Shown here: one piece after another, positions 44,009-48,274 of the stretch
How positions within the stretch are numbered: the stretch's first letter is position 1
How the letters are laid out: each line of letters begins with the position of its first letter
Source: an uncultured Mucispirillum sp.
GTDB taxonomy: Bacteria; Chrysiogenota; Deferribacteres; Deferribacterales; Mucispirillaceae
Direction: 5' to 3'
Assembly: GCA_944324465.1 (NCBI GenBank)
Contig: CALUWI010000001.1
Location: 33,023 to 97,022 of the forward strand
DNA: 64,000 bases
Made by a program: the position numbers and the translations under genes
The notes under the pieces: generated by a model
Databases searched by the model: none
The model's input: the letters and a program-made list of their open reading frames with translations, nothing else
Told to the model about the DNA's origin: nothing

Positions 44009-45229
44009 ATGAAAGAAAAAAAATCAGATTATTTGCTTATAAAAATTATTGCAGCTGTTATTCTTGGTATAGTAATTGGATTTATTATTAAATCTACAAG
44101 CGGAGTATCTGAGGATGGCAGTATGTCTACTCAGCATGTTCTGATGAATATTGTTTTACCAATTAAACATATTCTAGGACAGGTAATATTTTTTATGGTG
44201 CCCCTTATTATTATAGGCTTTGTAACACCAGCAATTACAGGCATAAAAAATAATACAAGCAAAATGCTTGGTACAATGCTTTTACTTGCATATTTATCAT
44301 CAGTTCTTGCGGCTGCATTTTCTATGGTGGCAGGCTATCTTATAATACCACACTTAAATATAGAACAAAGCGTTACAAATATAGAGCTTCCTGAAATGAT
44401 ATTTAAGTTAGATATTGAACCGATGTTTCCAGTTATTACTGCCCTTTTCTTCTCAATAACTTTTGGTCTTGCAGTAATATATACAAACTCTACTTTACTT
44501 GAAAAAATGTTTAATGAGCTTAATAATGTAGTAATGCTGCTTGTAAATAAACTGATTATTCCTATACTTCCATTTTTTATATGTGCAACATTTATAGAGC
44601 TTACATATCTTGGCAAAATAACTGACCAGCTTCCTACATTTATATCTATGGTAGTATTAGTTTTAATTGGTCATGTTATCTGGCTTGCACTTTTATATAC
44701 TATTGGTGGCTTAATATCTGGTAAATCACCATTTAGAGTACTTAAACACTATGCTCCTGCATATTTAACTGCAGCTGGCACAATGTCTAGTGCTGCAACA
44801 CTTCCAGTTGCATTAAAATGTGCAGGCAAATCTGATGCTCTTGATAAAGATGTAGTAGATTTTGCAATTCCTATGGGTGCTACTATCCACTTATGCGGTT
44901 CAGTTTTAACTGAAACATTTTTTGTAATGGGTATAAGCTATATTCTTTACGGCTCACTGCCAGACCTTACTACAATGCTTGTATTCATCGTACTTTTAGG
45001 TATATTTGCTGTTGGTGCTCCTGGCGTTCCTGGTGGTACAGTGGCAGCATCTATTGGTATCATTACATCAGTATTAGGCTTTGATGCAACAGGTGTTGGC
45101 TTAGTAATGGCAATATTTGCTCTGCAGGACAGCTTTGGAACAGCATGTAATGTAACAGGCGATGGTGCACTTGCACTTATGCTGCAGGGAATATTTAAAA
45201 AAAATAAAGAGAATACTGTAAATGTATAA
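44009..45229 (+). CDS. Dicarboxylate/amino acid:cation symporter (DAACS, SstT-like)
   Basis: TMSSAATLPV, IPMGATIHLCG, APGVPGG, QDSFGTACNVTGDGAL. Confidence 0.92.
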   Translation: MKEKKSDYLLIKIIAAVILGIVIGFIIKSTSGVSEDGSMSTQHVLMNIVLPIKHILGQVIFFMVPLIIIGFVTPAITGIKNNTSKMLGTMLLLAYLSSVLAAAFSMVAGYLIIPHLNIEQSVTNIELPEMIFKLDIEPMFPVITALFFSITFGLAVIYTNSTLLEKMFNELNNVVMLLVNKLIIPILPFFICATFIELTYLGKITDQLPTFISMVVLVLIGHVIWLALLYTIGGLISGKSPFRVLKHYAPAYLTAAGTMSSAATLPVALKCAGKSDALDKDVVDFAIPMGATIHLCGSVLTETFFVMGISYILYGSLPDLTTMLVFIVLLGIFAVGAPGVPGGTVAASIGIITSVLGFDATGVGLVMAIFALQDSFGTACNVTGDGALALMLQGIFKKNKENTVNV

Positions 45230-46220
45230 ACTTTTTACTGTTATTGCTGTATTTTTTGTCATTTCAAGCTGTATTAATAAAATTAATGATAAAAATACAG
45301 CAGAATATAATATATATTCTGATAACTCAAACTGGCTTAGTCTGCCTGATAATATTACACATAACGCTGATGTATTTTATATATATCCAACAGTATGTGC
45401 AAGTGATACATCTAATATCTGCCCTGTAGATGATATACAAATGCAAAAATCTGCTCAAAGAGTAATAAAATTACAGGCTGCAGCTTTCAGTAAATATGCA
45501 AATATATTTGCACCATATTATACTCAGTATGATATTGAAGCTATTGAATATTCTAACTATAATGATATACAGAAAATTATGAAACAAAATATTCAAGGTA
45601 TAAATGAGATATATGCAGCATTAGATTATTACTTCAAAAACTATAATAATGGCAGACCATTTATACTTGTAAGCCACTCTCAAGGTTCAGCTTTAATGCA
45701 GTATGTATTAAGTGATTATATGAAAAACCATAAAGAATATTATAAAAATATGGTGGCAGCTTATGTGATAGGCTACCCTGTTACAAAAGAATTTATGGCA
45801 GCAAACCCCCATTTAAAATTTGCAGAAAATGCAGAAGATACTGGTGTTGTTATAGCTTTTGAAGTGCAGTCTCCAAATAAAGCTGGTATTGATGCATTAT
45901 ATACTGATAACAGGCTTGTAATTAACCCTGTTAACTGGAAAAGAGATGAAACTTATGCTGCAAAAGAAGAAAATCTTGGCTCTTTAGACCAGAAAACTTT
46001 AGAAATTACAACTCCAGGTATAGCAGATGCTAAAATAGACTTAAAAAAAGGTGTAGTTATATGCTCTACAATAGATGAGAAAAAATACCAGATACCTATA
46101 CCTTCTGTTTTTGGAACAGGCTCTTACCATGGGCAAACATTCCAGCTTTACTATGTAAATTTAGGGGAAAATGCAAAGCAGAGAATAGATAATTTTATTA
46201 ATAATAAAAAAATTAAATAA
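45222..46220 (+). CDS. DUF3089 family alpha/beta-hydrolase lipoprotein
   Basis: Lipobox ISSC, ADVFYIYPT, FAPYYTQ, GRPFILVSHSQGS, YH near the C-terminus. Confidence 0.85.
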   Translation: MYKLFTVIAVFFVISSCINKINDKNTAEYNIYSDNSNWLSLPDNITHNADVFYIYPTVCASDTSNICPVDDIQMQKSAQRVIKLQAAAFSKYANIFAPYYTQYDIEAIEYSNYNDIQKIMKQNIQGINEIYAALDYYFKNYNNGRPFILVSHSQGSALMQYVLSDYMKNHKEYYKNMVAAYVIGYPVTKEFMAANPHLKFAENAEDTGVVIAFEVQSPNKAGIDALYTDNRLVINPVNWKRDETYAAKEENLGSLDQKTLEITTPGIADAKIDLKKGVVICSTIDEKKYQIPIPSVFGTGSYHGQTFQLYYVNLGENAKQRIDNFINNKKIK

Positions 46221-46276: not shown

Positions 46277-46359
46277 GCCGAAGTGGTGGAATTGGTAGAC
46301 ACGCCATCTTGAGGGGGTGGTGGGGCTTCCTCGTGCGGGTTCAAGTCCCGCCTTCGGCA
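46277..46359 (+). tRNA. tRNA-Leu (anticodon GAG)
   Basis: GCCGAAG acceptor stem pairing with CTTCGGC, D arm GGAATTGGTAGAC, anticodon loop TTGAGGG, long variable arm, GGTTCAAGTCC; CCA not encoded; TTGACA at 46236 upstream. Confidence 0.97.
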
Positions 46360-46366
46360 TACTATC

Positions 46367-46395
46367 AGGCAAAGCTCACAGGTTTTGCCTTTTTT
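46367..46395 (+). terminator. Terminator after tRNA-Leu
   Basis: aggcaaag / ttttgcct followed by a T run. Confidence 0.7.
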
Positions 46396-46452
46396 GTTAT
46401 ATATAAACTTTCACTTAATCTATTTATTTTATGATACAGAATAATATACTTT

Positions 46453-47190
46453 ATGAAAAATGCTGTAAACCGCGAAAAATACTATAAAATCTCTATATAC
46501 AGAATCTTATTTTTAATATTTTTATTCTCGCTTTCTATATGCCTTGTATCTGAAGCAAAAACTGTTGATTATTACTATTTAAATCAAGCAGAAGCACAGA
46601 GAAAAGTTGATGAATGTAAAAAATGGGAAAAAAATTTAAGCAATAAAGAAAAAAATTTAATTATGACAGCAATGTTTTCAGGTAATACTGCAGGGCTTTC
46701 AAAAAATACTATTAATATGCTTAATGAGTGTGAAACAGCAGAAAAAAGTATTAGTGCAAAATCATTTGTAAAATCAGTAGAATATTATAATACTCATTTA
46801 AAAGATGCTATGGAATATATTCACTTATGCAAAAATGATAATTCTTTACCAGCAGATGAAAAAGAACAATGCAGTAATGCTGTAAAAGCAGTAAAAGACT
46901 GTATTAATGGAGATATACCTGTACAGTCTTATGATAAAATCAGCCTTTTTCTTGGTTTAACAACTAGAACAGTAACTGAATTTGAGCAAAAACCAGAAGA
47001 AGCAAAAGCATTATTTAAAACATGCATTAATGCTGACGGCAGTCTTAAATCAAAAGAAGAACTGCAGAAAATAGATACTTTTAGATATGAAGAATGTTTA
47101 AATGCTGATAAAGCTATTAATAAAAACTGGATAGGAAGTAAAGATTTACGAGAAAAATTAATACAGTTTGTAAAAGATAATCAATTATAA
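46453..47190 (+). CDS. Exported protein with three tandem EexN/entry-exclusion-like Cys-paired repeats
   Basis: Signal peptide, then KTVDYYYLNQAEAQRKVDEC..ECETAEK; KSVEYYNTHLKDAMEYIHLC..QCSNAVK; RTVTEFEQKPEEAKALFKTC..ECLNADK. Confidence 0.55.
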   Translation: MKNAVNREKYYKISIYRILFLIFLFSLSICLVSEAKTVDYYYLNQAEAQRKVDECKKWEKNLSNKEKNLIMTAMFSGNTAGLSKNTINMLNECETAEKSISAKSFVKSVEYYNTHLKDAMEYIHLCKNDNSLPADEKEQCSNAVKAVKDCINGDIPVQSYDKISLFLGLTTRTVTEFEQKPEEAKALFKTCINADGSLKSKEELQKIDTFRYEECLNADKAINKNWIGSKDLREKLIQFVKDNQL

Positions 47191-47199
47191 AAATATTTA

Positions 47200-47365
47200 A
47201 ACCTTATTAAATTTTGTATAAGTGCTTAATTTTCCTATTTAATATCAAATCTATTTAAAGCAGGCTTCCAGTTTCTGATAGGCATAGTCCATTTGTTAGA
47301 AGCCTGTTTTATAGCTAAAAAGACAGCTTTAAAAGAAGTCTGTTCATCATGAAAGATTCTGTGAA
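47200..47365 (-). mobile_element. IS256-family transposase 3' remnant with probable right end
   Basis: Minus strand encodes RIFHDEQTSFKAVFLAIKQASNKWTMPIRNWKPALNRFDIK*, matching the IS256 C-terminal KWTMPIRNW motif; followed by ttatacaaaatt. Confidence 0.85.
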
Positions 47366-47515: not shown

Positions 47516-48274
47516 CTACTCATCATCTTTTATAATAAAAGTATTTCTATTTCCTTGAATTTTTTCTATTCGTTTTGCCCGCTCTATTTCCCATTCATCA
47601 ATCTTATCCTGCTTGTCCCACACTTCAAAAAGTTTACGCTGTTTATCTGAAATTGGCACATTATATGTTTTTTCCATATAAAAATAAGTTCTTGCAATAT
47701 CTCCCCTTATATCTTCCTTAGGCTCTGCTGCTTTATCTTTTACTTCAAAATCACATGCTCCATACTCTCTTTCTTCTCCATCAATTGTACCATAGCGAAA
47801 GTTATTTCTATCAGCATTTAATTCACCTACTGCAGGGTATAAGTTATACATATCTGCTTCCATTGCCTTAAATACATTATCTATTTTTTCACAGCATTTT
47901 CTCCCTTTGTATCTGTTTCCTTTGCTATTTATACATAATTCTTCACGCCAGCATTTGCGGGTATGACCAAAAGCCCAGGCAGGCACTACATGCTCCCATT
48001 CTATATATCTGCCTCTGTTTATATTTTTACGGGGAATATAGCCGCAGCTTTCTTCGTTTACTATAGCTTTTATACTTTTATCTACAAGTTCATAGCTGTA
48101 CTCACAGCCGCAGTAAAAACTGTACTGATAATCATAATACACCTGCTGCATAAGTTTCTTACTTTTTGAAAAAGATGTATTATTATGGGGTATAGTAACA
48201 TTATCATCACTAAAAGAATGTAATGCAGGAAAAAAGACAAAAAGTATTATTAAAAATAATTTTTTCATATTCAT
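47516..48274 (-). CDS. endA: Endonuclease I family periplasmic/extracellular DNase
   Basis: Signal peptide, YSFYCGC, IEWEHVVPA, EADMYNLYPAVGELNADRNNF, RGDIARTYFYM. Confidence 0.92.
   Translation of the reverse strand: MNMKKLFLIILFVFFPALHSFSDDNVTIPHNNTSFSKSKKLMQQVYYDYQYSFYCGCEYSYELVDKSIKAIVNEESCGYIPRKNINRGRYIEWEHVVPAWAFGHTRKCWREELCINSKGNRYKGRKCCEKIDNVFKAMEADMYNLYPAVGELNADRNNFRYGTIDGEEREYGACDFEVKDKAAEPKEDIRGDIARTYFYMEKTYNVPISDKQRKLFEVWDKQDKIDEWEIERAKRIEKIQGNRNTFIIKDDE

What the first reader, a model, noticed from the sequence alone, without database searches (positions are those of the whole stretch)
46453..47190. Chromosomal protein made of three tandem entry-exclusion (EexN-like) modules
Seen: three divergent repeats with consensus [KR][ST]V-x2-[YF]...A-x6-C...C-x-[NT]A-x-K. 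Established, from recall: IncN-type Eex lipoproteins are single small domains with a TVEWY..H..E....L..C...C.NA pattern. Here the domain is triplicated, has no canonical lipobox (probable SPase I signal ending VSEA) and lacks a neighbouring T4SS. Inference: a domesticated multivalent exclusion protein, each repeat possibly blocking a different VirB6/TraG-type conjugation system, which would be a broad anti-conjugation defence.
Basis: partly seen in the sequence, partly recalled or inferred. Interest (0 to 1): 0.65.

Follow-up and report, generated by a model that had tools for sequence, protein, structure and literature searches.

The report
Orphan triple EexN-like envelope protein
A gut bacterium (Mucispirillum) with no conjugation machinery of its own carries a stand-alone, often-lost gene for a secreted protein made of three divergent copies of the small domain that IncN plasmids use to block entry of related plasmids; the homology holds, but an anti-conjugation role is untested.

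Summary
ORF 46453-47190 (+) encodes a 245-aa protein with a signal peptide and three divergent modules. Each module alone matches NCBIfam NF033894 (EexN family lipoprotein): 28.4, 24.2 and 17.9 bits, 50.6 bits together against a cut-off of 33. The module profile aligns to the studied EexN of plasmid R46 (hhalign E 2.8e-5, both cysteines aligned). AlphaFold2 predicts three helical hairpins; no solved structure resembles them.

The genome is a Mucispirillum (Deferribacterota). It has no VirB4, VirB6, VirB10 or VirD4 match. The gene is a single-gene cassette just after tRNA-Leu. It is intact in 3 of 13 species genomes of the genus, a pseudogene in one, precisely deleted in one and removed by a larger deletion in another. 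Where intact it is under purifying selection (dN/dS about 0.25). The window protein looks SPase I-cleaved; a 37%-identical three-module relative has a lipobox.

Trb-type conjugative elements circulate in the genus. An apparent inverse link between the intact gene and T4SS genes vanished on a second marker (1/3 against 4/5 genomes). My best reading is a recipient-side blocker of incoming T4SS, confidence about 0.4. I rate it a new variant of a known kind.

The parts
46453..47190 (+). Gene for the 245-aa triple EexN-like protein (stop codon included)
   Evidence: ORF list; NF033894 hit of 50.6 bits; about 13 homologues, all Mucispirillum-type
46453..46557 (+). Signal peptide, residues 1-35: basic n-region, 15-residue hydrophobic core, SEA before Lys36. 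Probably cleaved by SPase I, not a lipobox.
   Evidence: Alignment: Cys30 is Tyr in P0002, residues at -1 are I/M/T, SEA/AEA-K is conserved. AF2 pLDDT <50 for residues 1-33.
46558..46764 (+). Module R1 (residues 36-104): KTVDYY...C55...C93-x-TA-x-K, with an extra helix inserted between the two cysteines
   Evidence: NF033894 28.4 bits, profile positions 5-51; alignments; helices 38-43, 45-60, 64-76, 84-105
46765..46911 (+). Module R2 (residues 105-153): KSVEYY..H...C126...C141-x-NA-x-KA. The most canonical module, 38% identical to R46 EexN over the aligned part.
   Evidence: NF033894 24.2 bits, profile positions 23-62. C141 is Tyr in some orthologues.
46912..46962 (+). Linker (residues 154-170), low-confidence segment
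   Evidence: pLDDT <50 for residues 161-168
46963..47130 (+). Module R3 (residues 171-226): RTVTEF...C191...C215-LNADKA. The best-conserved module across orthologues.
   Evidence: NF033894 17.9 bits, profile positions 22-53; invariant columns cluster here
47131..47187 (+). Conserved C-terminal helix (residues 227-245), not part of the EexN profile
   Evidence: Helix 229-242; dN/dS 0.05-0.16
46396..47212 (.). Limits of the single-gene cassette, defined by the empty site in relative G062
   Evidence: blastn and alignment of the window against G062, where exactly this stretch is missing between the tRNA-Leu terminator and the endonuclease I flank
46277..46390 (+). tRNA-Leu(GAG) and its terminator hairpin, immediately upstream of the cassette
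   Evidence: ARAGORN; terminator scan 46367-46390. Same neighbour in G054, G057 and G064.

Best explanation
Shown: the gene encodes an exported, all-helical protein made of three old, divergent copies of the EexN entry-exclusion domain, a short 'TVxYY' helix followed by a helical hairpin carrying a conserved Cys pair. It is a stand-alone accessory cassette next to tRNA-Leu in one clade of Mucispirillum. The host genome has no T4SS.

Inferred: the protein sits in the periplasm or envelope of a would-be recipient cell. There it binds a surface or periplasm-exposed part of an incoming MPF-T type IV secretion apparatus, probably a VirB5- or VirB6-like component, since eexN lies between virB5 and virB6 in IncN plasmids. 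Binding would block conjugative DNA entry, contact-dependent T4SS damage, or both. Three modules would give either avidity or a wider range of targets. No step after 'exported EexN-like protein' has been shown.
For: Family match above the cut-off, with each module matching separately. Direct profile alignment to the studied R46 EexN, with both Cys aligned. The module profile retrieves a 97-aa single-domain lipoprotein, P0028, which itself scores 40.4 bits on NF033894. Export signal. A 37%-identical three-module relative has a classical lipobox, as true EexN proteins do. Purifying selection, dN/dS 0.25-0.30. Presence/absence polymorphism with three different loss routes, as is common for conflict genes: precise deletion in G062, larger deletion in G059, multi-lesion pseudogene in G057. 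MPF-T (Trb-type) conjugative elements circulate in the genus: VirB4 is 86-89% identical between clades whose LigA is about 76% identical. Precedents in the literature: exclusion genes expressed in recipients protect against T4SS killing without DNA transfer (PMC11045733); a 151-aa TrbK homologue excludes both IncP and IncN plasmids (PMC8923210); a soluble periplasmic protein blocks a T4SS by binding VirB5 (bioRxiv 10.64898/2026.05.09.723464; unrelated fold).
Against: No functional data exist. Each module alone scores below the family cut-off, and only one member of the family (pKM101/R46) has been tested experimentally. The window protein is not a lipoprotein, whereas EexN and TrbK are membrane-anchored. 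It is not in a T4SS operon. Intact gene and T4SS genes are not significantly exclusive: 1 of 3 genomes with the intact gene have T4SS genes, against 4 of 5 without (one-sided Fisher about 0.29). The T4SS-bearing Mucispirillum genomes contain no EexN-like module, so there is no sign that local T4SSs belong to an EexN-sensitive type. The gene is lost in most relatives, including one with no T4SS (G062). No fold match supports a mechanism.
Confidence: 0.4

Rival explanations
1. An envelope or secreted protein that reuses the EexN-type disulfide-stapled helical hairpin as a scaffold for a job unrelated to T4SS, for example binding a periplasmic, surface or host-mucus ligand.
For: No T4SS context in any of the three locus types seen: tRNA-Leu/endonuclease I, or ftsE/hydrogenase. 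Soluble rather than lipid-anchored. It co-exists with a T4SS cluster in G064. An extra conserved C-terminal helix and module insertions are absent from EexN. Homology is remote, about 30-38% over 38 columns.
Against: The only characterised relatives are exclusion proteins. Nothing in Pfam, PADLOC or PDB points to another function. The patchy loss pattern fits a conditionally useful conflict gene better than a housekeeping envelope protein.
Confidence: 0.35
2. A relic of a former plasmid or ICE integrated at tRNA-Leu, left behind after the element decayed, with little or no present function.
For: It lies directly 3' of a tRNA gene. It is pseudogenised or deleted in most close relatives. Many truncated versions are present in public data.
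Against: dN/dS of 0.25-0.30 over dS of 0.6-0.8 in three species shows long-term constraint. All six module cysteines and the three-module layout are kept in a 37%-identical orthologue group at another locus. No integrase, repeats or other element genes flank the cassette.
Confidence: 0.12
3. The resemblance to EexN is a chance or composition effect in a Lys/Glu/Asn-rich helical protein.
For: Individual module scores (18-28 bits) are under the 33-bit cut-off. The protein is low in complexity and AT-biased.
Against: Three independent matches fall on the same profile region, with both cysteines in register. No other ORF of the same genome matches the mature profile. There were 0 of 14 control genomes and 0 other Deferribacterota ORFs at E<=1e-4. 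The reciprocal retrieval found a bona fide family member.
Confidence: 0.05

Closest known systems
EexN, entry-exclusion lipoprotein of IncN plasmids pKM101/R46 (NCBIfam NF033894; Pohlman et al. 1994 as cited in PMC8923210)
   Same: Same domain by profile: xVxWY/YY helix, first Cys at the end of helix 1, second Cys in C-x-NA. Exported to the envelope.
   Different: EexN is 75 aa with one domain, lipid-anchored (LVAC lipobox), and encoded between virB5 and virB6 homologues on a conjugative plasmid. This protein is 245 aa with three modules plus a C-terminal helix, SPase I-type, chromosomal and stand-alone, in a genome without a T4SS.
TrbK of IncP plasmids and the enlarged TrbK of pKPC_UVA01 (PMC8923210)
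   Same: Small exported exclusion proteins encoded next to trbL/virB6. The 151-aa pKPC_UVA01 protein shows that a larger exclusion protein can have a wider range (it excludes IncP and IncN plasmids).
   Different: No sequence match to TrbK was obtained here. TrbK proteins are lipoproteins and plasmid-borne. I did not test whether the pKPC_UVA01 protein is modular.
Tpf/XAC2611 trans-intoxication protection factors (DUF4189; bioRxiv 10.64898/2026.05.09.723464)
   Same: Chromosomal, Cys-rich, soluble periplasmic proteins that protect a target cell from an incoming T4SS by binding VirB5. This is the mechanism I propose by analogy.
   Different: Unrelated beta-rich fold. They are encoded inside or beside the cognate X-T4SS locus and serve as self-protection, not as an orphan gene.
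Three-module lipoprotein relatives P0014/P0029/P0030 and two-module protein P0019 (uncharacterised metagenomic proteins)
   Same: P0014-type proteins share the same three modules in the same order at 37-40% identity, with all six cysteines and the C-terminal helix. They score 42-48 bits on NF033894.
   Different: P0014-type proteins have a classical lipobox (ILASC/ISASC) and lie between ftsE and a NiFe-hydrogenase gene in a Mucispirillum-like organism. P0019 has only two R1-like modules and is of unknown origin.

Membership tests
EexN family lipoprotein (NCBIfam NF033894) | Whole-protein score on the family HMM above the curated cut-off (33 bits) | tested here: met
   50.6 bits, E 1.3e-13. This is the sum of three domain hits of 28.4, 24.2 and 17.9 bits, each below the cut-off alone.
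EexN family lipoprotein (NCBIfam NF033894) | Small single-domain protein (profile 65 positions; R46 EexN 75 aa) | tested here: not met
   245 aa with three modules plus an extra C-terminal helix
EexN family lipoprotein (NCBIfam NF033894) | Lipoprotein signal peptide with a lipobox Cys | tested here: not met
   LSIC has Ile at -1 and the Cys is Tyr in homologue P0002. The conserved SEA/AEA-K suggests SPase I cleavage. The divergent relatives P0014/P0029/P0030 do have a lipobox. No dedicated predictor (SignalP/LipoP) was available.
EexN family lipoprotein (NCBIfam NF033894) | Conserved Cys pair bracketing the hairpin loop, with C-x-NA | tested here: met
   C55/C93, C126/C141 and C191/C215 align with the two Cys of R46 EexN. 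C141 and C215 are Tyr in a few orthologues. Disulfide formation itself was not tested.
EexN family lipoprotein (NCBIfam NF033894) | Encoded inside an MPF-T T4SS operon between virB5- and virB6-like genes | tested here: not met
   The neighbours are tRNA-Leu, a DUF3089 protein, endonuclease I and ligA. The genome has no VirB4, VirB6, VirB10 or VirD4 match. The R46 context is shown.
EexN family lipoprotein (NCBIfam NF033894) | Reduces entry of the cognate plasmid when expressed in recipients | not testable with these tools
   Needs mating assays
Anti-phage/anti-MGE defence systems in PADLOC-DB | Match to any PADLOC model | tested here: not met
   No hit at E<=0.1 for this protein or for endonuclease I

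The most novel reading that the evidence does not exclude
A host-encoded, multivalent 'orphan' entry-exclusion protein. A bacterium without any T4SS keeps a secreted array of three diverged EexN modules, each tuned to a different incoming MPF-T apparatus. It would be a stand-alone barrier against conjugative elements and T4SS-mediated killing in the gut mucus layer: a defence class acting at the envelope before DNA enters.
Probability: 0.22. Interest if true: 0.75.

Novelty: new variant of a known kind. Interest (0 to 1): 0.5.

Why it matters
Entry exclusion is known as a selfish function of conjugative plasmids and ICEs, encoded inside their own transfer operons. A chromosomal, stand-alone, triplicated and soluble relative in a T4SS-free gut commensal would be different. 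If it blocks T4SS, it would show that hosts can capture exclusion domains as an envelope-level defence against conjugation or T4SS attack, and that tandem modules can widen or strengthen exclusion. That bears on how resistance plasmids are kept out of gut bacteria, and on the unresolved question of which T4SS part EexN-type proteins recognise. If it does not block T4SS, it shows that the EexN fold has uses outside conjugation. Either way the protein is small and easy to express and assay.

Tried and rejected
- Pfam gave no domain; weak SieB, aRib and similar hits are below threshold and lie on the hydrophobic or low-complexity parts.
- PDB by sequence gave no hit.
- tblastn of the protein and of single-domain P0028 against 72,556 plasmids found nothing.
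- The JGI metagenome scan found no relatives. The GTDB genome scan found only Mucispirillum.
- Inverse association with T4SS: VirB4 alone gave 0/3 against 4/5. The TrbI search then found a T4SS cluster in G064, so I rejected this as evidence.
- 'Eex3 plus endonuclease I' as a linked anti-DNA islet: rejected as a unit, because G062 lacks only the Eex3 cassette and keeps endonuclease I, and the two genes are convergent.
- An EexN-like gene inside the Mucispirillum ICEs: none found.
- Flanking direct or inverted repeats, or DNA-level tandem repeats: none meaningful.
- Consensus promoter on the + strand upstream: none found by the simple scan.
- The contig of the nearest single-domain relative, P0028, is too short to show context.

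Full report
**1. What is there**

It follows a tRNA-Leu(GAG) gene (46277-46359) and that gene's terminator hairpin (46367-46390). It is convergent with an endonuclease I gene (47516-48274, - strand; Pfam PF04231), which lies downstream of ligA. Upstream of the tRNA are a DUF3089 protein and a 406-aa membrane protein whose family I did not test.

**2. The repeats and their family**

- Pfam finds nothing in the protein.
- NCBIfam NF033894, 'EexN family lipoprotein', hits the whole protein at E 1.3e-13 and 50.6 bits (cut-off 33), in three stretches.
- Cut into thirds, each piece hits only that family and only its mature region: 28.4, 24.2 and 17.9 bits, with E 1.1e-6, 2.3e-5 and 2.2e-3.
- Profiles of the three modules built from orthologues recognise each other, with hhalign E from 3e-5 to 5e-4.
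- A nine-sequence module alignment gives the consensus [AK][KR][TS]V-x-[YF][YF]-x5-[ED]A-x6-C...C-x-NA-x-KA.

I fetched plasmid R46, where eexN (75 aa) lies between virB5- and virB6-like genes. The module profile aligns to it at E 2.8e-5 over 38 columns, with both cysteines in register. Module 2 is 38% identical to it.

The match is specific. In the same AT-rich genome no other ORF matches the mature part of the profile. At E<=1e-4 the family rings in none of 14 control genomes, and in no other ORF of 68 Deferribacterota genomes.

Searching 5.8 billion proteins with the module profile returned fragments of the same family plus P0028. P0028 is a 97-aa single-domain lipoprotein (LTAC lipobox, KSVEYYKKH...C...C-LNADK) that itself scores 40.4 bits on NF033894.

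**3. Anatomy**

AlphaFold2 on the ten-sequence alignment gives mean pLDDT 78, and about 90 over residues 41-150. The model is all-helical. Each module is a short helix (TVxYY), then a helix ending at the first Cys, a loop, and a helix starting at the second Cys.

- R1 has an extra helix inserted in its loop.
- R3 has a small beta-hairpin in its loop.
- A conserved C-terminal helix (residues 229-242) follows R3.
- Foldseek against PDB finds nothing meaningful, and there is no sequence relative in PDB.

The N-terminus is a signal peptide. Cys30 (LSIC) has a non-canonical -1 residue and is Tyr in homologue P0002, while SEA/AEA before Lys36 is conserved. No dedicated predictor was available.

**4. 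Who has it**

Full-length homologues are very few. There were 13 in the word-indexed search and 11 in the exhaustive phmmer search of 1.8 billion representatives. Those that carry names are 'hypothetical protein' from Mucispirillum MAGs, including Candidatus M. faecigallinarum.

A 37-40% identical group (P0014, P0029, P0030) keeps the same three modules in order, all six cysteines and the C-terminal helix. So the triplication predates the split. These proteins have a classical lipobox (ILASC/ISASC). They lie between ftsE and a NiFe-hydrogenase gene in an organism whose FtsE is 85% identical to Mucispirillum FtsE. That is a different locus, again without T4SS genes. P0019 (186 aa) has two R1-like modules, and its origin is unknown.

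**5. An accessory cassette**

Among 68 species genomes of the phylum, only four, all in the window's genus, have the gene. A LigA tree places these four in one well-supported clade of eight genomes, with G054 basal. The gene at the tRNA-Leu site is therefore probably ancestral to that clade.

| Genome | State of the gene |
|---|---|
| G000 (window), G054, G064 | intact |
| G062 | exactly window 46396-47212 missing, between the tRNA terminator and the endonuclease I flank; everything else kept |
| G059 | larger deletion that also removes DUF3089 and endonuclease I |
| G057 | three indels and at least two nonsense changes; endonuclease I intact |
| G055 | gene absent; IS transposase beside the tRNA |

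Truncated versions like that of G057 occur on many public contigs, so that lesion pattern is real. Between the three intact orthologues dN/dS is 0.25-0.30 at dS of 0.6-0.8. So the gene is constrained where it is kept.

**6. T4SS context**

The window's genome is 2.42 Mb and 97.5% complete. It has no match to VirB4, TrbL/VirB6, TrbI/VirB10 or TraG/VirD4.

Other Mucispirillum genomes do carry conjugative elements. In G059 I annotated an ICE-like region with an integrase, ParA/ParB-KorB, TrbB-C-D-E-F-G-I, TrbL, SLT, an ArdC-primase fusion and topoisomerase III. Its VirB4 is 86-89% identical in genomes whose LigA is only about 76% identical. G057 has a 64%-identical VirB4. So at least two MPF-T lineages move within the genus. 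None of the five T4SS-bearing genomes searched (G055, G056, G058, G059, G061) contains an EexN-like module.

**7. The association test, and why I discount it**

With VirB4 as the marker, the three genomes with the intact gene had no T4SS, and four of the five clade members without it did. A second marker, TrbI, then revealed an SLT-DsbC-x-TrbI cluster running off a contig end in G064, which has the intact gene and is 75% complete. The corrected count is 1/3 against 4/5, one-sided Fisher about 0.29, and the genomes are related. G062 lost the gene and has no T4SS. This comparison neither supports nor refutes exclusion.

**8. Mechanism**

What is shown is an exported EexN-homologous protein, triplicated, under selection, dispensable, and without a cognate T4SS. 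What is inferred is that it acts in a recipient's envelope against incoming T4SS.

- Entry-exclusion genes expressed alone in recipients block plasmid entry, and also protect against killing by a conjugative T4SS that transfers no DNA (PMC11045733).
- In IncN plasmids eex lies between virB5 and virB6 homologues, and a double-sized TrbK homologue excludes both IncP and IncN plasmids (PMC8923210).
- A soluble periplasmic protein of unrelated fold protects Xanthomonas from a T4SS by binding VirB5 (bioRxiv 10.64898/2026.05.09.723464).

By analogy, three tandem modules could bind an oligomeric tip or platform component with avidity, or cover several T4SS types. I put this at about 0.4. The main rival is the same scaffold used for an unrelated envelope or host-facing role (about 0.35). 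An element relic (about 0.12) and chance similarity (about 0.05) are less likely, for the reasons given under each rival.

**9. Family membership**

The protein passes the HMM threshold and the Cys-pair/motif test. It fails three other defining features of EexN: small single domain, lipobox, and location in a T4SS operon. Activity is untestable here. It is best described as a new architectural variant containing EexN-like domains, not as an EexN.

**10. Limits**

My searches were keyed to this sequence, so independent multi-module EexN proteins elsewhere cannot be excluded.

Noticed in passing
L050:6900-19400 and L051:600-13300 (G059:C1, about 218.9-245.3 kb): ICE-like element in a close relative: integrase, ParA/ParB-KorB, TrbB-C-D-E-F-G-I, TrbL, SLT, a five-PKD-domain protein, an ArdC-metallopeptidase-Toprim fusion (1151 aa) and topoisomerase III. 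Its VirB4 is 86-89% identical across Mucispirillum clades whose LigA is about 76% identical, which implies recent spread within the genus.
   Followed up: partly
window 47516-48274 (-): The endonuclease I gene (signal peptide, PF04231) lies just downstream of ligA. It is absent from G059. In G055, G056 and G060 only a 58-66% identical copy exists at other loci, in G056 within about 8 kb of the T4SS VirB4 gene. The nuclease is therefore also a variable accessory gene.
   Followed up: partly
window 45222-46220 (+): The DUF3089 (alpha/beta-hydrolase-like) gene overlaps the end of the upstream transporter gene. It is absent in G059 and partly deleted in G057, so the whole tRNA-Leu neighbourhood is an indel hot spot.
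   Followed up: partly
L078 (G064:C134:1-5716): A T4SS-like cluster of different layout (META-domain protein, SLT, DsbC-like thioredoxin, 248-aa unknown, TrbI N-terminus cut by the contig end). It co-exists with an intact triple-Eex gene.
   Followed up: partly
L023 (G055:C1:2150089-2153184): In the complete genome G055 the same tRNA-Leu(GAG) is flanked by an IS transposase (312 aa) and an M20-type amidohydrolase. Synteny around this tRNA is rearranged.
   Followed up: no
P0019 (186 aa, Logan contig of 3.6 kb): A two-module relative (30% identity) with R1-type long modules and an SPase I-like signal, of unknown organism. It shows that multi-module EexN-like proteins are not limited to the three-module form.
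   Followed up: no
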